A stretch of DNA of 63,011 nucleotides, counting the filler, from Collodictyon triciliatum (taxonomy: Eukaryota): the NCBI GenBank assembly GCA_043381765.1. It is 11 parts of 11 records of this genome, joined end to end, with 100 filler letters (N's around TTAATTAATTAA, not from the genome) between each part and the next. Parts side by side here need not be neighbours in the genome. Positions count along the whole stretch, not along the records: positions 51,746 to 58,108 come from JBHJMP010004516.1; 10 more parts are not named here. One strand, written 5' to 3'. Under the pieces are notes generated by a model. It did not search any database and had not been told where the DNA came from. It saw only the letters and a list, made by a program, of their open reading frames with translations. The position numbers and the translations under genes were made by a program. Shown piece after piece: positions 2,339-58,210 of this stretch; position 1 is the stretch's first letter; each line of letters starts with the position of its first letter.

Positions 2339-4060
2339 AGCATTTATCACTATTTACTACATCGATTTCGAATTGATTTGGTTTTTTATTTGGTTTTTTA
2401 TTTGGTTTTTTATTTGGGTTTTTATTTGGGTTTTTATTTGGTTTTTTATTTGGGTTTTTATTTGGGTTTTTATTTGGGTTTTTATTTGGGTTTTATAATA
2501 TTAGTGTTATTATTGCTGGTATTGTTCATTTATTTTTTAGAATTATATGACAAACAGCTCGATTCATATTACTTGTAACAAATCATGAAATCATGAAATA
2601 CTGTTGGGTTTGATTTATACAGTCAAAATTATTACCTCAAGGTCTATTAGTCTCTTGTTCATCGCCGTTTGGCTTTGGGACCCAAGCGTCTTAAACTCAA
2701 AAAGCTCTTTGCTGAGTTTCTCCATCTAAAATTGTGATTTAATCGTTGTAAAAAAAACTCCGTTTATATGCATTGACAGACATGGTTCCAAATATAGATG
2801 CTTCTGTTATGAGGAAAATGAGACTTTTGGTATTCCGCCTTCACTATTACATCTTTTCGCAGCTTGTCATTTTCCAAGGTAAGTTTTGAATTCACATCAG
2901 CTAGACCATCCGTCGCATCTTCCGTGTTTATAAACTATTTAAAATTAAGTAAGCTTGAAAGAAAAACATTAGGTGAAATAGAAAGGAGGAAAACGAATAA
3001 AATTAGTCGTTTATTTTCAAATTTCATTACAATTTGAATGGCCTGATCTATTCCATCCGCTTTCACCATGCTCTGGATTCGCTTAAAGGCTCTTTCAATA
3101 ACTTCTAGACGACTCTGACGAGGCAAAGATAGAGAAAATAGAGAAAAGAGTGTTTAATACCCGTACAATTAAGCATCCATAAATTGTTGTATCAGTTTTA
3201 GTAACCAACTTCTGAAAAGAAAAATTAAATAGAAAAATCATAATTGGAATATTTTTGTTCTTTGTATCAATTTGGCTACTTAGATACTTGTACCCGTGCA
3301 ATTTGATGTATACTCTATTTTGAAGTTCGCTTTCGATATGTTCAATTAAAAAACAAAAACAAGAAGCCATGTGGATGATTTACCAAAGAGGCAAAATGAC
3401 CCGCCTCCTGGGTGATGAACTCAAACCCTTTCTTTCCACCTTTTGCCAAAGTTAGAAAGCTAGCACATGTTTCAGTAGGGGGAGACATCACATTCGTTCT
3501 ATTTTCAATCGCCAAAGATCTGCTGTAGATATGCTCTTTGACCTAGTTAAAGTTAATTTCGTAAACGGATATTTTAATATTATATGAGGATATTACCACG
3601 ATTAAAAAAAAAACTCCATAATATTTTAGTGGGAGGGGTAATACGTCAAGATTGTAAAATTTTATGAATATCTTATTGAATGTAATATTTTTGAGTGCGG
3701 CTCTGCAGAAAGTTTTTTTTTACAGAAAAAATGATTGAAACCACAGTTATACTTTTTCATCATTATCAACAAGCTTTTGGAGAACTTGAATTTCAGCTTT
3801 CCAGCACTCCTTAGAGGCTTCAAAATGCTTGCATGTGCTGGTAAGCTCTGTGTGGAGCGCATGCAATGCGGTGGTTCTGAGCGTTGAATGAATAATTTTG
3901 TGATTCCCTTTATTTTATTTGTTTTCAACGATTATGCTTTTTTGTTATGTTCTTAAATGAAAAAAATCAAAAAGAGTTACATAGACGCTTAAGTATAGAT
4001 TCATATACATATATATTTGGATAAAGAAATTCTTTAGAGTTCAACACGATATCGAACACG

Positions 4061-4099
<39 letters not shown>

Positions 4100-5214
4100 A
4101 TAGAAAACTCAACTCCATTAGGTCGAGAAAGGAGGGAAAATTAGAATGTAAAATATTAAAACATAAGAATACGTATTCTGAAGCCTTTGTTTTAATCTAA
4201 TACACTCTGTTTCTAACCCAGCTACCTCATCCATAACCTATATATTGTTTGATATTTGGAAAAAATCGGTGAACATCCCCATAACGGATGATGAAATATG
4301 ATTGTTCAGATTATTTCACAAAATCAAGTTGTTGTTTTTTTTCAATTTGTGCGAGATAGGTGGCATTGCCTATCAGTCATTCTTATTATATAAAAATTTA
4401 AAAAAAAACCCTTCAAAAAATTGCACTGATAGAGTATTGAAAAAAAAATATTACCAACCTTGTCATGAGTGATTCTAAGCCTCCTATTTTCCGATGAATT
4501 GTCATGGACCATCGCTACATATTTCTCGTATTGGGAGCGGCTGATTGAAAAAAAATATAGAATATATTCAATCATATCTAACAATAGGCGGTGGACATTA
4601 AAAATGCAGATATCTAAATTACGGTCCTTACGATTGATCTAGTTTTTGTTGCAATACGGCGAGCCTTTCTTCTAGTGACTTCAATTTTCTCTTTTCTATC
4701 TTACTGTTCATTTCCTGATCGCAGTGGGATAATGATTCGCGAATAAAAAAAAATAAAAAAAATAAAAATAAAAAAAAAGGGAGAGAGAGAGAGATTGATT
4801 TTAGGTGTTAAATCTAATATGGCCTATGTTTATACAGTATGTTCTTGGCTGTATTCATCGCATCTCTTAAGCATATTATAATCATAATGAAGGCTATGGT
4901 ACACAAATATTCGATGAATAATATTGAAATTTTTCATCCTTCGTTCAAATATCATCTATATCTACTCTAGAAAAATTATGAGAAAGGGGAACTTGAGAAT
5001 ACGATCAAACCTGCATATCGTGAACAGACCGTCTTTCCTCCTGTAGTTTGACTGCCATCGAAGAAACAGTCTCTTTAATCCCCTGGTTTGTGTTATTGCG
5101 ATTGTCTATCTTCTTTCTTAGGTCCATTATCTGTAAATTTAAGAATAATAATAGGATTATTTTTTAAAATATTGCGTAAGAAATTTGCAGATAGTTCAAC
5201 TGCTCTAGATTTGC

Positions 5215-5311
<97 letters not shown>

Positions 5312-5953
5312 GTTTTGAATCTAATTTCTTCGACTATATACATGGTAAACCCAAGCGGAATGAAATAATGTCAGAATAATCTTTAATTCTTACAGAGTCT
5401 TCCATCTCAAGCATCTTCATATTTACTGAATGACCATGATTTCTAGTGACAGAGAGTGTATTTGCTTCGCTTGACTCGTATTCCTGTGCCTATTCAGCAA
5501 TAAATTATGAAAGGGTGAAAGATATGTAGATATGAGACTAACGTAGCGAAAGGGCTTCTAAAATTGCAGAACCACGATACAATTCAATTTTATGGAACGC
5601 TTTTCGTGAGAAAAAAATTGGAAGGAAGGGAATCTTTAATATATATATATATATTGTGTCTTGTAACTCCAGTGAATTATATTGATGAATTTTATTTTAT
5701 TGCACAAGATACTGAAGTAAAGAATTGATATTTAAACGAAAGCAAAGCCAAAAAGAGATAATAAAAAAAAACAAGAAAAAAAGTTGATCCAATATTTAAC
5801 CCTGCTTTGCGGTCGACTTCTGGGGAGTGTACGAGAGTTTGTAACTCCGACGTTGAATGATTTCGTCACCACTGATCTTGTGCGAGAAAAGTTTGACGTT
5901 TCTGAGCGAGGTGAGGATCCAGTCGGAGATAAAGCTTGTTGTTGGGTAATCAT
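1030..5953 (-). CDS. Multi-exon coiled-coil protein resembling outer dynein arm docking complex subunits (ODA-DC; CCDC114/CCDC63/CCDC151 family)
   Basis: Spliced exons around 2850-3120 give AFKRIQSMVKADGIDQAIQI|FINTEDATDGLADVNSKLTLENDKLRKD, matching the family pattern AFxxIxxxxxxxDIDxxxxxFIxxEDxNxxLxxxxxxLxxExxKL. Further heptad exons include MEKLSKELFEFK and RYAQAELDRENLSAECAKLAK. Ends approximate. Confidence 0.5.
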
Positions 5954-6319
5954 GGACTGTAAAGTTGATATTGTTCATATATAAAAGTTAAAATAATGAA
6001 TAACTTGAGCATTTCTCCTTGAAACATTTTTAATAGAGAAAATTGTATTTTGCACGAATAAATGTAATAGTAGATTCCTAACAACACTCCAAAAAAAATT
6101 AAAATGATTTGTTTCAGGTGTAAATGTACTGGTGTTGAAATGATTAACTATATATTATTAAAGAAACGTGTAAAAAAAAAAAACAATGGATACCTTTGCT
6201 GGATAAGACGATTCCATTTGTAATAAGCTTAGTCCGAAAAGTAGATGAATTTTTAATTTTTTTTTGAAAGAAAAGGCTTCTTTAACAAAGATTTTTGATA
6301 AACATTCAATATCAGGATA

Positions 6320-21894: not shown

Positions 21895-24148
21895 TTAGTA
21901 AGCCACCATGTATAGAGCACCACGGTACCACCCGTGAACACTATCATAAGGAGCCCCGACTATAATGCCGTCATGGTTGGTGGCAACAGAGTATCCGAAC
22001 AAGTCAGAGCCATCTTGAAGCCCCAGAGAGTATCTTGTCAAGGACCAGTACCCGAATCCGGTGTTTTGCACGACATAAGCAGAGCCTGTCATAAAAGAAA
22101 GAAGGATATACCCTAGTAAATGCTATGATATATCAAGAACCTGATGATAATACATTAAATAGACCTTACAAAAAGAACGGGCGATTTCTATTAGATTTAT
22201 AATATATTTTCATGGTTACCCCTGGAGTTGTAATAGCTTCCGTAGTATGAATAGGAGGTGGCACCAACAACGAGGTATTGTTTCTCGCGGTTGTATGCCA
22301 GCGACACACCGAACGAAGTGACATCAGCATTATTCGGAGTGATGTAATTAGCCTCGTCGAACGTGCCGAATTGGTTGAGGATGTAGTGGTACACCGACCC
22401 ACCCATGTATGTGTATTCTGAATCTTCATATGCTGCCACGAACAGATTACTTCCGTCAAGGATGACCTTGTTTCCAAAGTAGTAAGAAAACGAGCGACTG
22501 GGATAGATTGATTGTACAAGAACAGCGGAATCGAATGTGTACGTAAACACATAGACTATCCCATAACCAACATCACCTGACACAACCAACAGTCCACCAG
22601 AGGCAGAGACTGAGACACCAAATCCCTCGCCATACCGAATGTTTGGAGACTTAACTTCCAGATATCTCGGACCACGCACACGGTCAATCGACTTTGGATA
22701 ATGGTATCCGAACACAACACCACTAGATTCGTATCCATTTGTGTTTGCATAAGGGGAAGATATGAAGGTAAAGTTACCATCCATAGCCATAGAGAATCCA
22801 AAGTATTGGTATGATTGCTCAATTGGGGACGTCAGGATGAATTTTCGAGTGTAGCGATTGGTGGCAGGGGAGTAATGGAATCCATAAACAGCAGACTTCT
22901 CTGTCCCGGTGTCCCAGTCATAGAGGGATTTTGACTGAATGAGGAGGCGTCTGTTCTGAAGAACGACATTTGTACCAAAGTAGCTCGAGGAGACCTTACC
23001 AAGATACTGGAAGTGTTGTTTTAGTGTCCATCCTTCAGGCGACGTTTGAAGAATATACACCTTTCCGCAAGGAATACCGGTTTGGCTGAACTCCGAACAG
23101 AATGGTTGTGTCACTGCAGCTTCATTTCCATCAGCAGAGACAGAGTAACCAAGTTCATTGGACTTACCGTGGATGTTGCGATAAACCATGGCGTTACCAG
23201 GGAGAGACGGGCTCTGTGACGGGGTTGGTGAGGCTGTATTACTCTGGGATTGGGTAGGGGTCGATGAATGAGTCGGAGTAGGAAATGAGTCTCCTGTAAA
23301 AAAAAAAAAAAGAGTTAAATTTAGATTATGTGCGGATGGTTCCCTATTATTTGTATTGTCCTTGTAAGTTTTTCTCTATAAGATTAGAAAAAGTAAAAAT
23401 AAAATAAAATCATAGTGCAGAGATAGAACGTAGTCGTACCAACGTTCCAGACCCAAACACCAGGAACGCCGATGTTGGACTCGTATGTGGCACGGTTAAC
23501 TTCACCACGAGAAAAATCCGGACTGAAGTAGCTGTAGCCGTCTCCGAGATTGACACCGATTGTGTAGAGGTAGTCTGGCTGATTTAGGCCGCCATCAGGA
23601 TAGTTGAAGACAACAAAGAAACTCGACTCGTCAGTCACAATAGCGGCTTGGAAAGTGTTGTGGGGATATGTTATGACAGGGAACATCCCAACTTCATACC
23701 AAGTAGCCAGGTAAATACGCGAGGCGGTGAAGGAACTGTGAGCTCCACTAGGATCACTGGTGCGGATGAAATCCTCGTATTGGACTGAGTACATGCTGTT
23801 TGAGGGAATGATCTCATAGTATACTTTCCCAGCTCCGTCCCCACTGCTGCCTCGAGTGTCGAGATCGGCCCAGAGTGGCGCAATTAGGGCACCTCCACTA
23901 GTAGTTGGGAAAGGGATAGAACTTGGAGAAGTGTTGTCCTCACCGAGCGAAATGAGTCCATTCGTGCAGACATAGATGCTATTGAAGGTCTGGCCGAAGA
24001 AGTTTACGTAGCCGCTTAAGCCTTCACAGTAGTCATCATTGGCGGTGATGTACGCAGCTGTATTGTCCAAGTTGTAGGGCAGAAGCTGAGTGGCTGACAC
24101 ACAGACAAGCACACTAGCGACTACAGCGAGTACAGCACGATGATGCAT
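21895..24148 (-). CDS. Secreted NIDO-domain + S/T/P linker + FG-GAP repeat (integrin-alpha-like beta-propeller) protein
   Basis: Signal peptide MHHRAVLAVVASVLVCVSA. NIDO motifs NSIYVCTNGLIS, LIAPLWADLDTR, NTFQAAIVTD and SNIGVPGVWVW. FG-GAP repeats FGFSMAMDG, FGVSVSASG, FGVSLA and FGYSVA...IIVGAPYD. Exons 23440-24148, 22220-23293 and 21895-22085 are in compatible phase. Confidence 0.88.
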
Positions 24149-52423: not shown

Positions 52424-52548
52424 TTATTAAACTCTACAGTCCCACCACAGCAAGAACTGCGTTTGATATGGTCGACTGTATGCTTCCATATTCTCTCTAT
52501 TACTAACACGATAGTCATAATCAATGATATTATTGAAACTGGTTCCAT
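52414..52548 (-). CDS. 44-aa putative viral membrane microprotein (not in the ORF track)
   Basis: MEPVSIISLIMTIVLVIERIWKHTVDHIKRSSCCGGTVEFNNNI* has an N-terminal hydrophobic helix and a basic Cys-Cys motif. It starts 18 bp after the MCP stop, preceded by AAAAAAATATATGCTATATA. Confidence 0.75.
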   Translation of the reverse strand: MEPVSIISLIMTIVLVIERIWKHTVDHIKRSSCCGGTVEFNNNI

Positions 52549-52566
52549 TATATAGCATATATTTTT

Positions 52567-54168
52567 TTATTCGACTTTATAAACCTGTTGATTATTTTGT
52601 ATTTCTAGCACGGCATCATATAGCGAGGCAATTATAACATTGTAAGTTGTTGGTGCCCCACCAGTTTGAAATTCCAATCTCAAGCTAACCAGTCCTGACC
52701 CTGATGCAGCTAGGTCGACTCCTGCAACCTCCCCCTCGGAAATGTCCAGTACTTTTTTCATATTGAAAGCTAAAATAAAATTACTTGGAGTAACAGCACA
52801 CACTTCACGCATATATCTTAAGCCAGTATCATTTAGACGAGCACCAGCTAAATCAGTCTGTGGGTTAGCAGTATTTCTGGCATAATTTGCATTAGGGTCA
52901 AGTGCAACAGTCGCTTGATACGCAGTCCAACTCTGACCATGATGAGAATATGCGGGATATATATTAACATCGGATATTCCACCAGTGTTATTAGCTCCAG
53001 TATGAAACAGGTTTTGAACTGTGCCATATCGAGGTCCTATAAAATCTTGCCCGGAAAAGCTCCACACGCCCGCTGTCTCACTTCGTAAGTAAGCAAGACC
53101 TAAAGACTTCTGCAGTTCTATAAATGCATGCGCACTCTGATTAGTGCAGTCTAATGGTGTAAGTGGATAATAGAATGAACCTACTTGAAGCTGGGCCGTT
53201 TTCAGATTTGGAAAATGCAAACGGTCACGGCCCGCAATATTGAACTTAGCCTGCTCATTAACTGCAAAAAACGATATAAACAATGCATTGAGCGATTTCA
53301 CGGTATCATTAATATTATATGTTATCGCATTAGTTCCAGACGGCAATGAATAAAGGCTTGTCCTAAACGTCTTAAAGGGAATTGTTAGGCTTTGGCCACG
53401 TGTTATGGCAGCCGCCAATTGTGAATGATAACTTGGCTCCATTCTAACTAAGTCATATGTCATATAACAATTAGTCAAAGTATAAGTGCAATCAATCGAA
53501 GCACCAATATTATTAACATTATCTCGAGTGTAACACACCATACACTCATTGGCAGGTGCCAGTTCAATTTCTATTTGGAATGCTGTGACGCTGTCAATCA
53601 ATGAAGTGGATAAAAGGCCTGAATAGTTGGAAATACCTGACAATCGAAGGGGAAATGCATAGTTCCTTTTGGCCAGAGTACTATCAAATACATTTACAAT
53701 TGCACCATTTGCATCTTTACCGCTTCTATGATATAATATACGTTCAATTGTGGTGCCAATACCCATTAGGGCTTTACCGGGACAGTTGTTGTGGTCAGAT
53801 GATACCATATTCATCAACATACTGTCAACGTAATTGTATCTTTGTATATCTTCAATTAAAAACTGCGTCCCCTTTCTTATTTTTAAATTATGAATAATAC
53901 TTTCTATTGAATTACAAAAATAAATATCTGTTGTATTGATGGCACCGTTTCCCACAAAGGAAGGTGTGACGTCACAGTGAAACATAAGAGTATCCATATC
54001 GAGCTCCATACCTGACTCGCTCGGTATGTTAAACAAAAGTCGGTCGACATTTCCAGGGCCAAATGTACCCGCATTGAATGGAGAGATACGTGTAGTGTGG
54101 CGAGCCATTACAGAATCATTAAAGTTTTGTACGCGTTTGTATCTTGCTTCATTTGGTAGTTCAGACAT
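52567..54168 (-). CDS. Major capsid protein, double jelly-roll, Polinton-like virus type (533 aa)
   Basis: N-terminal RISPFNAGTFGP...LLFNIP...LDMDTLMF and SIESIIHNLKIRKG..LIEDIQRYN. Middle FQIEIELAP, YTLTNCYMTYDLV, SLNALF, QLQVGSFYYP and AFIELQKS. C-terminal FILAFNMKK...GVDL...YDAVLEI. This is the motif order of PLV major capsid proteins, and the gene is intronless. Confidence 0.88.
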   Translation of the reverse strand: MSELPNEARYKRVQNFNDSVMARHTTRISPFNAGTFGPGNVDRLLFNIPSESGMELDMDTLMFHCDVTPSFVGNGAINTTDIYFCNSIESIIHNLKIRKGTQFLIEDIQRYNYVDSMLMNMVSSDHNNCPGKALMGIGTTIERILYHRSGKDANGAIVNVFDSTLAKRNYAFPLRLSGISNYSGLLSTSLIDSVTAFQIEIELAPANECMVCYTRDNVNNIGASIDCTYTLTNCYMTYDLVRMEPSYHSQLAAAITRGQSLTIPFKTFRTSLYSLPSGTNAITYNINDTVKSLNALFISFFAVNEQAKFNIAGRDRLHFPNLKTAQLQVGSFYYPLTPLDCTNQSAHAFIELQKSLGLAYLRSETAGVWSFSGQDFIGPRYGTVQNLFHTGANNTGGISDVNIYPAYSHHGQSWTAYQATVALDPNANYARNTANPQTDLAGARLNDTGLRYMREVCAVTPSNFILAFNMKKVLDISEGEVAGVDLAASGSGLVSLRLEFQTGGAPTTYNVIIASLYDAVLEIQNNQQVYKVE

Positions 54169-54198
54169 ATTTATACAAAGAAAATATTTTTTTATAAT

Positions 54199-54543
54199 TT
54201 ATTTAAACGCGGCTTGTCCAAAATCATACGCACGTTTCAAATCCTGAATCCCTTGCCCGGCCCGTTGCGAATTAAAATTTTTAAAATCAATATTACCCAA
54301 TGTTGAAAGTCCACGCCCCAGTGCGTGTGTTGCATCAATTGTATTCACCAGTGGATTATAAACAGTTGAGGCAAGTTGATATATTGGGGTTGCCCTGACC
54401 GCAAAATCCAAGACCCCACCTGAAGCTTTATTGACTTCATCATATTTTCTGTTGATTGTATTCAAACGACTGCTGGCTATCTCTGCTCTATTGATTAAAA
54501 ATCGTCCTACACCTCGTGCTATTTTTCGTCCATCGAATCGCAT
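54199..54543 (-). CDS. 114-aa putative virion protein with a basic amphipathic N-terminus
   Basis: The likely start is the ATG at 54543 (MRFDGRKIARGVGRFLINRAEIAS...), which avoids overlap with the divergent gene. The protein is Gly/Ala-rich and helical and ends 30 bp before the MCP ATG. Confidence 0.72.
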   Translation of the reverse strand: MRFDGRKIARGVGRFLINRAEIASSRLNTINRKYDEVNKASGGVLDFAVRATPIYQLASTVYNPLVNTIDATHALGRGLSTLGNIDFKNFNSQRAGQGIQDLKRAYDFGQAAFK

Positions 54544-54576
54544 AATATAACTAAGATTTTTTTTAATTGTAATAGT
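54544..54576. promoter_or_regulatory. 33-bp divergent intergenic region, putative bidirectional viral promoter
   Basis: It lies between the ATGs at 54543 (-) and 54577 (+). The minus strand reads AAAAAAAATCTTAGTTATATT-ATG, similar to the leaders of the MCP and 44-aa genes. Confidence 0.55.
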
Positions 54577-57500
54577 ATGGTTCGTCCTCCTCCTCATAAT
54601 TGGCCTTTTAAACCACAATATACACCAGATGAGTTACGAGACTGGTCAGCTGCTGAATTGAAGGCTTATATCAGAAGACATTATCCTGGTATTAAAGCTG
54701 CTAGTAAAGGAGAGATGACTGACGAGATTTTATTGGCGCAAGGTAATCATCCAAATCAGCATCAAAGAGACCCTTTTTTATTGAGACAAAATATAGAAGC
54801 TTTGGAGGAAAGATTGGCTGATGCAAATAGGCAATTAAATTTAGCTAATGCCCAAGTAGCAAATATTCCACTAATTGCACAACAAAATGCAGGACAAATA
54901 GCGGCTGTTCAAGCGCAAGCAGCTCAGTTACAACAACAGATTCAAGGTTTACGTTTGGGTATAGTTGCAATGCAACAAAACCACGTTCAACAAATGGCTA
55001 ATTTTGCAGCCCAGGTAAATGTTGCAGCTCAAGGTGTTATAGCACCATTACAACAAAATAATCAAGCACTTCAAGCTCAAGTGCAACAACTTAACGCAGG
55101 ATTTTTAGCACAGAACGCACAATCAAATCAAATAATACAAAACTTACAAGATGTGATAAGGAGAAATCAGGCAGGGCAAGTGATACAAGCGCAATTTCTT
55201 CGACATAGGTTAGCTGTCGCAAATCAAATTAGTCAACAAATGTTTCAAATGCTACAAGCACAAAATGCAAATTTAGGAAATCAACAAATTCAAGACCAAG
55301 CACAAATAGCTGCTGATGCAGTTAGAATAGTAAATTTGCAAGCTACTATAAATAATCAATTAGCTCAAATAAACCAAGATGCAGCTACAATATTAAATTT
55401 ACAAGGACAGACACAAAATGATGCAGCACAAATAGCGAGACTCACTGCGCAGAATGCACAAGACCAAGCTACAATTCAGAATTTACACATACGAATACTA
55501 GCCCAGCGGCGGGAGCAACGACGTACGATTGATGCATACAGAAGTGATATGAGGCAGTTGCTTCAAGACAATCAAGCACAATATCAATTAATTGGACAAA
55601 TGAATGTCGCTATACAACAAGACCAAGCAACAATTCAAAGATTGGGTGGCTTTTTACAAATACATCAACAAAATGAGGCTGCTATGAGAGCAGATATACA
55701 AAGACGGCAGACTATTATTCAAAATTTAAGAGCAACTATTGCAGGACACGAAGCAGAAATTCGAAGGTTAAAAACAAGCGAACGTAATTTAACACGACAA
55801 TTAAACCAGGAACAAGCTAATAATAATCAGTTGACAGCTGATAATCGTAGATTACGAGGTGATGTAGCCTTAAATAGACAGGATATACAAATACTTACCG
55901 CTCAAGTACAACAAGAGCGACAAAATGTTCAAGCAGCTCAAGGTAATTTATTAGCTGCTCAACAGCAACTAGTAGCAGAACAAGCGGCGCTTGCGGCATT
56001 GCGTGTTAATTTAGCTGCTCTTCAAGCACAAATGGTTGCAGACCAAGCAACTATACAAAATTTATTAAATGCAAATCAACAATTTAATGCCCAACATCAA
56101 GCGGATGCACAACTAATGCAACAAATGGCAGCTGGAAATCTCCTGTTATTGGGAGGAGCAAATCAACTTGAAATAGATCTTCGTGCTTATATTAATAATT
56201 TATTGCAATTGATGGACCCAAATATAAACGCAAATATATTAACACCTTTAGTGCAAACATTGGCACCACTATATCAAATGTTAAATAGGGCACCTCCAAA
56301 TATACCTATTATTCGTGGAGCCGCTCCAGCTCCTCCTCCAGTGCCACCCGCACCACCTGCAGCTCCAGGAGGCCCACCACCACCACCAGCTCCAGGAGGA
56401 GGCGGAGGTGTATTACCCGCATTTCCCCCAGGCCCTCCCGGTGCATTAGCACCTCAACCCCCATTGGGTCCAGGAGCAGGAGTCATAGGAGGAGCCCCCT
56501 TGCCAGCATTTGTCCCGGGTGGTCCCGCACCGGTACCACCAGCCGTCCCACCTGGACCTGGTGTTCCTATTGGACGGCCTTTACCCCCAGGAAATCCAGC
56601 TTTACCCGCTTTTCCCCCAGGCCCTCCCGGTGCATTAGCACCTCAACCCCCATTGGGTCCAGGAGCAGGAGTCATAGGAGGCGCCGCCTTACCACCATTT
56701 ATCCCGGGTGGTCCCGCACCAGCCCCCGCCCCAGCCCCCGCACCAGGCGGCCTAGCTGGAATTGGATTTGCAGGACCTCAACCACCACCTATTGCCAGGC
56801 CTGTTGCGCCAGTGGGACCAGGAGCAGGAGTCATAGGAGGCGTCCCCTTGCCGCCATTTATTGGTCCCGCACCAGCCCCCGCACCAGCCCCCGCACCCAA
56901 CCCTCCACCAAATCCACTCGTCCCAGGAAGAGGTAGGCCTCCAATAGGACCACCTTTGCCGATTGCACCGTTTGGTCCACCCCCAGTGCCACCCCCGCCG
57001 AATCCCGCTATTGTTATTCTTCCACCCGCACCAATTGTACCCGCACCAATTGTACCCGCACCAGCCCCCGCCCCAGCCCCCGCTCCAATTGTACCCGCTC
57101 CAGCCCCCGCACCTAGACCAGGTCCGATTAGAGGACCTAGACTTGTTTTACCGCCAGTGCCCGCACCCGCACCAGTGCCCGCACCCGCACCAGTGCCCGC
57201 ACCAGCCCCATTACCCGTGCCCGCACCAGCCCCATTACCCGTGCCCGCACCAGTACCGATACCCCCTCCTGCTGTAGTTGCTCCTCCACCGGCCCCAATG
57301 ATAAATAATTTTCTTGGTGATGGTATGGCAACTAGACGAGGCAAAGATGTTAATAATTCAAGTAATATTCAAAGTTTATTGGATGATGTCGAATATGCAT
57401 TTCAATCTATAGGTAATCTAAGCGAAGAAGTTAATCCACCACGAGTAATTAATACATTCCCATATGACCTTCCAAGAATAAGAAGGCGAGGACTTCGAAG

Positions 57501-57987
57501 TCCAAATGATATCAAAGATGCGCTTAATCGAATGGGGATGGCTGATTGGGGAGATGTCACGGCTAATCCTAAGAAATTAATATATTTTTTAAACAACATG
57601 AGTAACCCTGAATTACCATTGCAATCTATGGTATATCAAATGTATAAAAATAACACATTACCACTCGTATATGATCCTAAACCTTCTGAATATGATACTA
57701 TTACCCCTACACGCATTATATCAACTTTACCAGGTAGTGAAAAAAATAAATCGATTTTAGTAGAACCTAACAAAGAGGCTAAAATAGTAGGTGTAAAACC
57801 AAGTCGAGGAACTATTATTCGACGAAAGGGTATCAATTATGAAGTTAATGATGGTGGTAAGAAGATGACTTTTGGTTCACATCAAAATGCTAGTTATTAC
57901 GTTAAAAATAAAAACAAATCTTATTTTGGCCCTAGCACATTTTTAGGAGACCAGCGATTAAAAACTCGCGGTCAGGTTCATTTATAA
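54577..57987 (+). CDS. 1136-aa viral protein: HeH/Rho_N-like N-terminus, long Gln/Asn/Ala coiled coil, Pro/Gly/Ala-rich region, basic C-terminal domain
   Basis: Uninterrupted 3.4-kb ORF. It has TPDELRDWSAAELKAYIRRH...ASKGEMTDEIL at the start, recurring QDQATIQNL heptads, polyproline and (AP)n tracts, and a globular-looking last ~220 aa. Confidence 0.9.
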   Translation: MVRPPPHNWPFKPQYTPDELRDWSAAELKAYIRRHYPGIKAASKGEMTDEILLAQGNHPNQHQRDPFLLRQNIEALEERLADANRQLNLANAQVANIPLIAQQNAGQIAAVQAQAAQLQQQIQGLRLGIVAMQQNHVQQMANFAAQVNVAAQGVIAPLQQNNQALQAQVQQLNAGFLAQNAQSNQIIQNLQDVIRRNQAGQVIQAQFLRHRLAVANQISQQMFQMLQAQNANLGNQQIQDQAQIAADAVRIVNLQATINNQLAQINQDAATILNLQGQTQNDAAQIARLTAQNAQDQATIQNLHIRILAQRREQRRTIDAYRSDMRQLLQDNQAQYQLIGQMNVAIQQDQATIQRLGGFLQIHQQNEAAMRADIQRRQTIIQNLRATIAGHEAEIRRLKTSERNLTRQLNQEQANNNQLTADNRRLRGDVALNRQDIQILTAQVQQERQNVQAAQGNLLAAQQQLVAEQAALAALRVNLAALQAQMVADQATIQNLLNANQQFNAQHQADAQLMQQMAAGNLLLLGGANQLEIDLRAYINNLLQLMDPNINANILTPLVQTLAPLYQMLNRAPPNIPIIRGAAPAPPPVPPAPPAAPGGPPPPPAPGGGGGVLPAFPPGPPGALAPQPPLGPGAGVIGGAPLPAFVPGGPAPVPPAVPPGPGVPIGRPLPPGNPALPAFPPGPPGALAPQPPLGPGAGVIGGAALPPFIPGGPAPAPAPAPAPGGLAGIGFAGPQPPPIARPVAPVGPGAGVIGGVPLPPFIGPAPAPAPAPAPNPPPNPLVPGRGRPPIGPPLPIAPFGPPPVPPPPNPAIVILPPAPIVPAPIVPAPAPAPAPAPIVPAPAPAPRPGPIRGPRLVLPPVPAPAPVPAPAPVPAPAPLPVPAPAPLPVPAPVPIPPPAVVAPPPAPMINNFLGDGMATRRGKDVNNSSNIQSLLDDVEYAFQSIGNLSEEVNPPRVINTFPYDLPRIRRRGLRSPNDIKDALNRMGMADWGDVTANPKKLIYFLNNMSNPELPLQSMVYQMYKNNTLPLVYDPKPSEYDTITPTRIISTLPGSEKNKSILVEPNKEAKIVGVKPSRGTIIRRKGINYEVNDGGKKMTFGSHQNASYYVKNKNKSYFGPSTFLGDQRLKTRGQVHL

Positions 57988-58018
57988 ACAATTGTTACTA
58001 TTAATAAGAATTGTTTAT
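57984..58018. terminator. Bidirectional hairpin overlapping the stop codons of two convergent genes
   Basis: ATAAACAATT (57984-57993) pairs perfectly with AATTGTTTAT (58009-58018), extended by TTA/TAA after one mismatch. Each arm contains a TAA stop (57985-57987 on +, 58015-58017 on -). Confidence 0.75.
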
Positions 58019-58107
58019 GGACTTACGACACCAACGACATACCAGCGACTGTCTGCTGTTACTGTGCGACGATAATTTATTACATCAACAACTGTCCCAT
58101 TTACTAA
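58015..58107 (-). CDS. C-terminus of a further convergent viral gene, truncated by the contig end
   Basis: Open frame ...LVNGTVVDVINYRRTVTADSRWYVVGVVSP* is beta-strand-like and ends in the shared hairpin. Confidence 0.65.
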   Translation of the reverse strand, partial: LVNGTVVDVINYRRTVTADSRWYVVGVVSP

Positions 58108-58210
58108 TNNNNNNNNNNNNNNNNNNNNNNNNNNNNNNNNNNNNNNNNNNNNTTAATTAATTAANNNNNNNNNNNNNNNNNNNNNNNNNNNNNNNNNNNN
58201 NNNNNNNNTT

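What the first reader, a model, noticed from the sequence alone, without database searches (positions are those of the whole stretch)
57984..58018. Hairpin-rule-like terminator shared by two convergent viral genes
Seen: a 10-bp perfect stem, extendable, whose arms each contain the TAA stop of one of two tail-to-tail genes. A second AT-rich stem overlaps the stop of the 44-aa gene (52383-52423). Established: Mimivirus and its virophage Sputnik end transcripts within such palindromes. Inference: this element may be transcribed by a giant-virus machinery, meaning a virophage-like lifestyle and possibly host defence, rather than by host Pol II. The stem is shorter than typical Mimivirus hairpins.
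Basis: partly seen in the sequence, partly recalled or inferred. Interest (0 to 1): 0.72.

Follow-up and report, generated by a model that had tools for sequence, protein, structure and literature searches.

The report
Shared gene-end hairpin, Polinton-like virus
A small DNA virus that has inserted itself many times into a single-celled eukaryote's genome closes its blocks of genes with a short fold-back signal like the one giant viruses use to end their messages, which hints, without yet proving, that it borrows a giant virus's machinery.

Summary
The hairpin is real: 15 of 17 arm positions pair, and the two TAA stops sit at the base of the stem. It lies in a Polinton-like virus (PLV) integrated many times in this genome (91 capsid matches). 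Both arms persist in 24 of 26 copies examined, even where both flanks are unrelated. Environmental relatives keep the fold with different letters. Hairpins mark the ends of gene blocks, not every gene: the capsid gene has one in 5 of 5 copies where it ends a block and in 0 of 25 where it is internal. Structural genes carry an AT-rich TCT start motif resembling giant-virus late promoters, and 12 host genes show neither signal. The best reading (about 0.6) is a two-way mRNA 3'-end signal read by a giant-virus-type machinery, which also acts as a joint for swapping fibre genes. No RNA data or helper virus was found; the element fails the tested virophage-family criterion; host defence is untested. 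The scan had already noted this PLV family, its promoter box and its terminal palindromes on other contigs; the notes I saw did not describe the block-end hairpins.

The parts
57984..58018 (.). Two-way block-end hairpin filling the whole gap between two convergent genes; TAA stops at 57985-57987 (+) and 58015-58017 (-) form the base of the stem; 10-bp outer stem, G.G 1x1 mismatch, 3-5-bp inner stem
54577..57987 (+). 1136-aa Gln-rich/Pro-rich protein with a C-terminal domain shared (27-41% identity) with the long gene of other copies; function not established
58015..58108 (-). Last 30 codons of a probable fibre/spike gene, cut by the contig end. 'Fibre' is inferred from its place after the penton-like gene, its variable length and its swapped C-termini; no Pfam or PHROG hit
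54199..54543 (-). Basic 114-aa protein (true start probably 54543, not 54597), homologous to the 119-aa protein upstream of the capsid gene in other copies; no 3' hairpin
52567..54168 (-). Double jelly-roll major capsid protein, 533 aa; internal in its block, no 3' hairpin
52414..52548 (-). 44-aa protein with a hydrophobic N-half and an SSCC motif, conserved next to the capsid gene; last gene of the block
52383..52423 (-). One-way block-end hairpin at the stop of the 44-aa gene (11 pairs, 1x1 mismatch, 4 pairs, 9-nt loop); no convergent partner gene
54541..54562 (-). Start-anchored AT-rich T[AC]T promoter-like motif before the basic gene
54166..54187 (-). Same motif before the capsid gene
52546..52567 (-). 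Same motif before the 44-aa gene; its AT-rich part overlaps the capsid stop codon
52245..52288 (.). Perfect 44-bp TG...CA palindrome: the element's terminus, matching 42-45-bp palindromes at both ends of other copies
51746..52100 (.). High-copy host repeat flanking the insertion (at least 40 places at about 90% identity); not part of the virus

Best explanation
The hairpin is a two-way mRNA 3'-end signal of an integrated Polinton-like virus. SHOWN: the element's genes lie in short co-directional blocks; nearly every structural gene has its own start motif, but only the last gene of a block carries an AT-rich hairpin that begins at its stop codon; where two blocks meet tail to tail, one hairpin fills the gap and serves both. 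SHOWN: the fold, not the letters, is kept between distant relatives, and several unrelated hairpins share one shape (8-11-bp outer stem, one 1x1 mismatch, 3-5-bp inner stem). INFERRED: transcripts from several starts run to the shared hairpin (nested 3'-coterminal messages) and are cut there and polyadenylated by an RNase III-like enzyme and poly(A) polymerase of the Mimivirus kind, which none of the element's scanned genes encodes, so a co-infecting giant virus supplies them. SHOWN as a pattern, INFERRED as a process: being the only conserved sequence between two fast-changing genes, the hairpin is also the joint at which long-gene and fibre modules are exchanged between copies.
For: Both arms in 24 of 26 loci. 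Window versus C3494: 33% / 100% / 31% identity for left flank / hairpin / right flank, random baseline 31%. The homologous junction in metagenome contig L130 pairs with different bases at five stem positions. Fold z <= -2 against dinucleotide shuffles: long gene 13 of 25, helicase 9 of 14, small gene 11 of 24 distinct ends, against basic 0 of 24, ATPase 0 of 9, 109-aa gene 0 of 7, penton-like 1 of 12; capsid gene 5 of 30, all 5 in the AT-rich clade where it ends a block (similar counts by a pair-count score). A third clade (capsid 27% identical) has a stop-to-stop 13-bp hairpin after its capsid gene, there again a block end. Hairpins after the small gene need no convergent partner (window, L040, L058, L130). 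Start motif W6-T[AC]T-N7-10-T(A)ATG: 109-aa gene 9 of 9, penton-like 7 of 8, fibre 5 of 5, basic 19 of 21, capsid 14 of 20, small 8 of 12, against 8 of 1747 other viral ATGs and 11 of 2121 host-window ATGs. Host actin/histone genes: 0 of 12 starts with the motif, 0 of 12 ends with a hairpin. Literature (passages): hairpin signal not conserved in sequence, cut by RNase III-like R343, and a polycistronic Mimivirus cluster (PMC4402537); hairpins at 16 Sputnik gene ends (PMC6723459); a PLV that depends on a giant virus for transcription (10.1101/2022.07.28.501842).
Against: No transcript end is known. The integrase and its convergent partner end blocks but mostly lack hairpins (1 of 7 and 2 of 9 at z <= -2), as does the 142-aa gene (0 of 7), and about half of long-gene and small-gene ends miss the z cut-off. 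The published Mimivirus late pattern with <= 1 mismatch is met by only 4 of 20 capsid and 4 of 12 small-gene starts and by no other class; the window's genes have 2 or more mismatches. The window element has no AAAATTGA. The plus-strand fold has a 7-nt loop, over the Mimivirus limit of 5 (PMC8557863). AATAAA overlaps the stop of 21 of 30 capsid and 13 of 14 helicase ends. Copies are related by descent, so the counts are not independent events; the start motif and the hairpin shape were read off these same data; the host control is 12 genes of two families whose poly(A) sites are unknown. Compensatory changes in palindromes can also come from template-switch repair (established knowledge, not tested).
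Confidence: 0.6

Rival explanations
1. The hairpin is a 3'-end or read-through barrier, but it is read by host machinery (Pol II pausing or a host RNase III/Dicer-type enzyme). The element is then an autonomous nuclear PLV with promoters of its own.
For: It explains block-end placement and structure conservation equally well. The start motif differs from the Mimivirus pattern. AATAAA lies at many stops. The elements are integrated in nuclear DNA.
Against: 12 host genes show neither hairpins nor the start motif. AATAAA is missing from long (0 of 25), basic (1 of 24), ATPase (0 of 9) and integrase (0 of 7) ends; at capsid and penton-like stops it doubles as the AT-rich part of the next gene's start motif, and at helicase ends it is buried in the stem. 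Intergenic gaps of 6-30 nt leave little room for Pol II promoters and 3' UTRs (inference).
Confidence: 0.2
2. The palindrome works at DNA level, as a cruciform or protein-bound recombination joint that drives fibre and long-gene swapping, and is kept symmetrical by template switching; any RNA role is secondary.
For: Module breakpoints fall at the hairpin on both sides. Duplication and insertion scars lie right beside it in C5233, C820, C3494 and C4089. The element uses DNA palindromes at its ends.
Against: Hairpins of the same shape but unrelated sequence sit at other block ends where no swap was examined, always from a stop codon, and presence follows block position in the capsid gene. The kept central mismatch weakens a cruciform. 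Any conserved island between variable genes collects crossovers passively.
Confidence: 0.12
3. There is no selected fold: each gene ends in the same linear signal (TAAA plus an AT-rich tail), and two convergent copies only look like a palindrome.
For: Most genes of the element end in TAAA, and five basic-gene ends read TAAACAAT like the hairpin arm without a partner.
Against: Arms differ between junction types yet match within each. Pairing beyond the stops is reached by 7-128 of 20000 shuffles in 6 of 7 junctions, and by 1050 in the seventh. Hairpins exist with no convergent gene (52383-52423; L130).
Confidence: 0.08

Closest known systems
Mimiviridae 'hairpin rule' polyadenylation signal (also Pithovirus, Marseilleviridae; PMC4402537, PMC5413956, PMC8557863: passages read; Byrne 2009 itself not held)
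   Same: AT-rich palindrome right after the stop codon; structure kept without sequence conservation; size meets the Pithovirus threshold (stem >= 10, loop <= 10) and, on the minus strand with one mismatch allowed, the Mimivirus one (>= 13, <= 5).
   Different: It lies on an integrated Polinton-like element in which no RNase III or poly(A) polymerase gene was seen; it marks block ends only; a 1x1 mismatch 3-5 bp from the loop recurs; cleavage and polyadenylation are not shown.
Sputnik/Zamilon/Guarani virophages and transpovirons (PMC6723459, PMC6510173, PMC11998528, PMC7031253: passages)
   Same: Small dsDNA element with giant-virus-like start motifs and terminator hairpins, read as dependence on the helper's transcription.
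   Different: The capsid has no hit to the Pfam virophage capsid families and no maturation protease was seen; RVE integrase and many nuclear copies; the start motif has an 8-nt rather than 9-nt spacer and tolerates G/C.
Polinton-like viruses that depend on giant viruses: PgVV-14T (10.1101/2022.07.28.501842) and Tetraselmis PLVs (10.1101/2025.10.09.676808); passages
   Same: Double jelly-roll capsid, A32-type ATPase, SF3-type primase-helicase, fibre-like gene, no protease seen.
   Different: PgVV uses the early AAAATTGA motif and single-gene transcripts; neither text contains the word 'hairpin'. Here a late-type motif and block-end hairpins dominate.
Halocafeteria endogenous PLVs/virophages with terminal palindromes (10.64898/2026.07.28.741278; passages)
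   Same: Palindromes at the outer ends of the terminal repeats, in elements with RVE integrase and non-pPolB replication genes.
   Different: That text concerns DNA termini, not gene ends, and does not mention flip/flop cores ('flip' 0 occurrences), which are seen here.

Membership tests
Hairpin-rule 3'-end signal | AT-rich hairpin just downstream of the stop codon, stem >= 13 bp and loop <= 5 nt (Mimivirus) or >= 10 and <= 10 (Pithovirus) | tested here: met
   Pithovirus threshold met on both strands; Mimivirus threshold met on the minus strand only and only if one mismatch is allowed; whether the original definition allows it was not seen
Hairpin-rule 3'-end signal | Enrichment at gene ends over coding sequence and shuffles | tested here: met
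   Met for block ends
Hairpin-rule 3'-end signal | Present at the end of most genes | tested here: not met
   Internal genes 0-1 per class; integrase 1 of 7, its partner 2 of 9, 142-aa gene 0 of 7
Hairpin-rule 3'-end signal | Structure conserved without sequence conservation | tested here: met
   L130, L129 and other clades; within the main clade the sequence itself is strongly conserved
Hairpin-rule 3'-end signal | Poly(A) added inside the hairpin after cleavage by a viral RNase III-like enzyme | not testable with these tools
   Needs transcript ends or an enzyme assay
Polinton-like virus | Double jelly-roll major capsid protein | tested here: met
   Model pLDDT 70.6; Foldseek E 2e-15 to iridovirus, Sputnik and PBCV-1 capsids at 8-12% identity
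Polinton-like virus | A32/FtsK-HerA packaging ATPase | tested here: met
   PF04665 E 1e-8 in sister copy C2077; that gene lies beyond the window's contig end
Polinton-like virus | Single jelly-roll minor capsid (penton) protein | tested here: inconclusive
   255-aa conserved gene before the fibre; no Pfam/PHROG hit; Atlas neighbours are unnamed viral clusters; fold not obtained
Polinton-like virus | Integration module and terminal repeats | tested here: met
   rve integrase, E 3e-6 (below the curated cut-off) in the main clade and 9e-13 to 2e-10 in C962 and C1853; shared terminal repeats at both ends, 17 termini with different outer flanks; target-site duplication not testable, no copy seen whole
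Virophage in the strict sense (Lavidaviridae/Maveriviricetes; PMC9952930) | Virophage-type major capsid protein detected by profile | tested here: not met
   No Pfam family at E <= 1, virophage capsid families included; the study group's own profiles were not available
Virophage in the strict sense (Lavidaviridae/Maveriviricetes; PMC9952930) | Maturation cysteine protease | tested here: inconclusive
   None among the element ORFs scanned; no copy was seen complete
Polinton/Maverick | Protein-primed family B DNA polymerase | tested here: not met
   The replication gene is a DUF5906/primase-type helicase; no pPolB among scanned ORFs
Mimivirus late promoter | Pattern [AT]8 T[AC]T N4 [AT]5 [AG]TA[TG]A with <= 1 mismatch (PMC6510173) | tested here: not met
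   4 of 20 capsid and 4 of 12 small-gene starts, 0 in other classes; window genes 2-5 mismatches
Functional virophage (helper-dependent, host-protective) | Replicates only with a giant virus and lowers its yield | not testable with these tools
   No helper identified

The most novel reading that the evidence does not exclude
This PLV lineage is a giant-virus parasite whose block-end hairpins encode a sequence-independent ruler (a 1x1 mismatch 3-5 bp from the loop) for a giant-virus RNase III complex. The same hairpin is the fixed joint at which a host-resident population of dozens of copies reshuffles its fibre tips, and the genomes replicate by hairpin transfer, as the flip/flop terminal palindromes suggest. 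Gene-end shape plus start motif would then predict which PLVs need a helper, and of what kind.
Probability: 0.25. Interest if true: 0.75.

Novelty: new variant of a known kind. Interest (0 to 1): 0.52.

Why it matters
The replication strategy of most Polinton-like viruses is stated to be unknown (abstract of 10.64898/2026.07.28.741278). So far shared promoters have been the main sequence clue to helper dependence. A 3'-end signal is a second, independent clue, and here it comes with a natural control: the same gene has or lacks the hairpin according to its place in a block. The recurring mismatch gives a concrete guess about how hairpin-rule enzymes pick their cut, which PMC4402537 leaves open (a missing 'ruler'). 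A terminator that doubles as a swap joint would explain how fibre diversity arises among integrated copies. If the signal proves to be host-read, it is still an unusual 3'-end mechanism for a nuclear element.

Tried and rejected
RNA evidence: no RNA holder was listed for window 52300-58108, so no reads were laid. Giant-virus markers in G000 (PF04947, PF04451, PF19244): no match, but the controls were blank too, so these say nothing. Capsid alignment against viral contigs: 77 pattern matches, none confirmed. The hairpin pattern in viral contigs gave one match, in a phage-like contig with terminase and portal-type genes and no gene ends at the site: chance. ATPase relatives L217-L221 (23-35% identity) are so AT-rich that their palindromes are uninformative; not counted. 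Rfam: one match at E 0.89, ignored. Bacterial promoter/terminator scan: at shuffle level. An in-frame start motif inside the long gene (57306-57327) suggested a nested gene, but only 3 of 20 copies have such a site, at different places: rejected. T-runs as terminators for hairpin-less genes: integrase 4 of 7, others scattered; not convincing. My pair-count score is lenient to G-U pairs and gave at least one false fold (L067), so the energy test is the one to trust. G-U versus A-C asymmetry as an RNA-versus-DNA test: too few one-way cases. Sequence search of the capsid against PDB, Pfam and PHROGs: nothing. Byrne 2009 was not held. No model of the penton-like protein was obtained. Supplements of the papers were not opened; hairpin lists for PLVs could lie there.

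Full report
1. The observation. Window 57984-57993 and 58009-58018 form a perfect 10-bp inverted repeat that extends to 17-nt arms with 15 of 17 positions complementary. Folded as RNA, the plus strand gives 13 pairs, one G.G mismatch and a 7-nt loop; the minus strand gives 15 pairs, one mismatch and a 3-nt loop (z -3.2 and -4.7). The TAA of the 1136-aa ORF (54577-57987, +) and the TAA of a minus-strand frame (58015-58017) pair with each other at the base of the stem, so the hairpin is the whole intergenic gap. Holding the stops fixed and shuffling the 27 bases between them, 11 of 20000 shuffles pair as well. The second stem, 52383-52423, is also real and holds the stop of the 44-aa gene. The window is a chain of separate contigs joined by spacers; the finding lies on G000:C4516 (window 51746-58108), which ends 30 codons into the right-hand gene. 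That stub is a true gene end: ORFs of 454-540 aa with the same C-terminus stand in other contigs.

2. What the element is. The 533-aa ORF folds as a double jelly-roll capsid protein (pLDDT 70.6; Foldseek E about 2e-15 to iridovirus, Sputnik and PBCV-1 capsids at 8-12% identity) and has no Pfam, PHROG or PDB sequence hit. It has 91 matches in this genome, many of them fragments, and 39 public relatives, the closest 94% identical. Sister copies add an A32-type ATPase, a DUF5906/primase-type helicase, an rve integrase, a 255-aa penton-like gene and a variable fibre-like gene; 'penton' and 'fibre' are inferred from position and variability, not from a family hit or a fold. No protease and no pPolB were seen among the scanned ORFs. 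Seventeen termini carry 42-45-bp TG...CA palindromes with different outer flanks, on both the capsid and the integrase side; the window's is 52245-52288, beside a high-copy host repeat. So this is a Polinton-like virus integrated at many sites, about 18 kb long (inferred from two partial copies; none was seen whole). The host is a eukaryote with introns, actin and histones; its lineage was not determined.

3. Conservation of the hairpin. A DNA search with 57500-58108 found 14 other contigs, several matching only the hairpin. Of 29 matches to the long gene's C-terminus, 26 were examined and 3 dropped because they stop short at contig ends. Both arms are present in 24 of 26 loci, in 22 of them within 66 nt of the stop (read by eye). 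The hairpin is an island: window versus C3494 gives 33%, 100% and 31% identity for left flank, hairpin and right flank, against a 31% random baseline, while window versus C2610 gives 44%, 88% and 100%. At least five fibre C-termini combine with three long-gene types, and small duplications or insertions lie beside the hairpin in C5233, C820, C3494 and C4089. In metagenome contig L130 the same junction folds with different bases at five stem positions; L129 keeps it with a G-U pair.

4. Gene ends were collected from all fetched loci, made unique by sequence and folded against 100 dinucleotide shuffles each. Ends with z <= -2: long gene 13 of 25, helicase 9 of 14, small gene 11 of 24; basic 0 of 24, ATPase 0 of 9, 109-aa gene 0 of 7, penton-like 1 of 12. 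The first three close a block of co-directional genes; the last four are internal. The capsid gene is the natural control: 5 of 30, all five in an AT-rich clade where it closes a block, and 0 of 25 where it is internal; a third clade has a 13-bp stop-to-stop hairpin after its capsid gene, again at a block end. Against this pattern stand the integrase (1 of 7), its convergent partner (2 of 9) and the 142-aa gene (0 of 7). Copies share ancestry, so these counts are not independent events. Several unrelated hairpins share a shape: 8-11 outer pairs, one 1x1 mismatch, 3-5 inner pairs.

5. Start signals. A start-anchored motif, W6-T[AC]T-N7-10-T(A)ATG, precedes the 109-aa gene (9 of 9 distinct starts), penton-like (7 of 8), fibre (5 of 5), basic (19 of 21), capsid (14 of 20) and small gene (8 of 12), against ATPase 1 of 5, integrase 4 of 8, helicase 0 of 9, 8 of 1747 other viral ATGs and 11 of 2121 host-window ATGs. 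In the window it sits before the basic, capsid and small genes but not the long gene. It resembles the CroV late TCTA motif and the two-part Mimivirus late promoter (PMC5294985, passages), but the published Mimivirus pattern (PMC6510173, passages) is met with <= 1 mismatch by only 4 of 20 capsid and 4 of 12 small-gene starts. Host actin-family and histone genes show the motif at 0 of 12 starts and a hairpin at 0 of 12 ends; three actin-related rows whose ends were intron borders were left out of the end count. AATAAA overlaps many stops (capsid 21 of 30, helicase 13 of 14) but not long (0 of 25), basic (1 of 24) or ATPase (0 of 9) ends; at capsid and penton-like stops it is the AT-rich part of the next gene's motif.

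6. How it most likely works. One start motif per gene and one hairpin per block imply nested messages that share a 3' end (inference). In Mimivirus the hairpin is not conserved in sequence, is nicked by the RNase III-like R343 and then polyadenylated, and a polycistronic cluster is known (PMC4402537, passages). None of the element's scanned genes encodes such enzymes, and the host genes sampled do not use the signal, so a co-infecting giant virus is the simplest source (0.6). A host-read signal (0.2), a DNA-level recombination joint (0.12) and twin linear signals (0.08) remain. Nothing here bears on host defence. By the thresholds quoted in PMC8557863 (passages) the hairpin meets the Pithovirus size on both strands, and the Mimivirus size on the minus strand if one mismatch is allowed.

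7. Comparison and novelty. Hairpin-rule signals are known from Mimiviridae, Pithovirus and Marseilleviridae (PMC5413956, PMC5871332, PMC11814242; passages), from Sputnik (PMC6723459) and from transpovirons (PMC7031253). Helper-dependent PLVs are known, but the PgVV-14T and Tetraselmis preprints do not contain the word 'hairpin', and the entomopoxvirus PLV paper uses it only for DNA telomeres (PMC11296320). Terminal palindromes are described for Halocafeteria elements (10.64898/2026.07.28.741278, passages). Searches for 'hairpin rule' + 'virophage', 'polinton-like' + 'hairpin' (one listed, 6 read as passages, one more in its journal version, the rest seen as listings only) and two wider combinations showed no report of 3'-end hairpins in a PLV; subscription papers and supplements were not searched. 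The element does not meet the virophage capsid criterion of PMC9952930 (passages) as far as Pfam can test it. Earlier notes of this scan, read after my own analysis, already record this PLV family, its promoter box and its terminal palindromes on other contigs; some doubted integration, which the varied flanks now support for the family.

8. Verdict. Observation confirmed; interpretation partly supported. A new variant of a known kind: a hairpin-rule-like signal restricted to gene-block ends in an endogenous Polinton-like virus, with a recurring mismatch and a second role as a module joint. Interest 0.52; it would rise to about 0.75 if poly(A) sites and a helper were shown.

Noticed in passing
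window 52245-52288; L019, L030, L032-L035, L042, L044, L057, L062, L165-L174: Element ends are 42-45-bp TG...CA palindromes. The unpaired 11-nt core occurs in both orientations (flip and flop) at both ends in two subfamilies exactly and in three more approximately, as expected of hairpin-transfer replication.
   Followed up: partly
window 52321-52385: Two imperfect direct repeats of about 31 nt, each with a small inverted repeat, between the terminal palindrome and the small-gene hairpin; no DNA match elsewhere in G000.
   Followed up: no
L040, L058/L030, L034 (after the small gene): The Mimiviridae early word AAAATTGA overlaps the 5' arm of the small-gene hairpin, ahead of the 142-154-aa gene (3 of 6 distinct starts): terminator and next promoter fused.
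   Followed up: partly
integrase, 193-aa and capsid upstream regions: TGCG/CGCG 20-60 nt before the start in 8 of 8 integrase, 6 of 6 193-aa and 10 of 20 capsid starts; Bodo saltans virus has a weak late motif TGCG (PMC5871332). No background count was made.
   Followed up: partly
helicase upstream regions: A [CT]TT[AC]AA[AG]A word 25-66 nt before 8 of 9 helicase starts; found after the fact, unassigned.
   Followed up: no
C2008/C4329 versus C1998/C5043: At least two clearly different primase-helicase types occupy the same slot in the main clade, and the window copy joins a divergent long gene to a fibre end 95% identical to C2610: modular exchange is general.
   Followed up: partly
L217 (IMGVR_UViG_GVMAG-M-3300013132-26_000001): A 12.9-kb contig named as part of a giant-virus bin carries this family's ATPase (35% identity) and homologues of genes of the AT-rich clade: probably a PLV binned with a giant virus, a lead to the helper.
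   Followed up: no
window 57306-57327: In-frame promoter-like motif before the last 220 codons of the long gene; not conserved, although C2416 and C1228 carry that domain as a separate ORF.
   Followed up: yes
G000:C26 (L058, about 4000-6000): A 60-70% GC island in otherwise 35-45% GC host DNA about 1 kb beyond an element end.
   Followed up: no
window 22197-24148: Host ORFs with FG-GAP and NIDO domains on another contig of the window.
   Followed up: no
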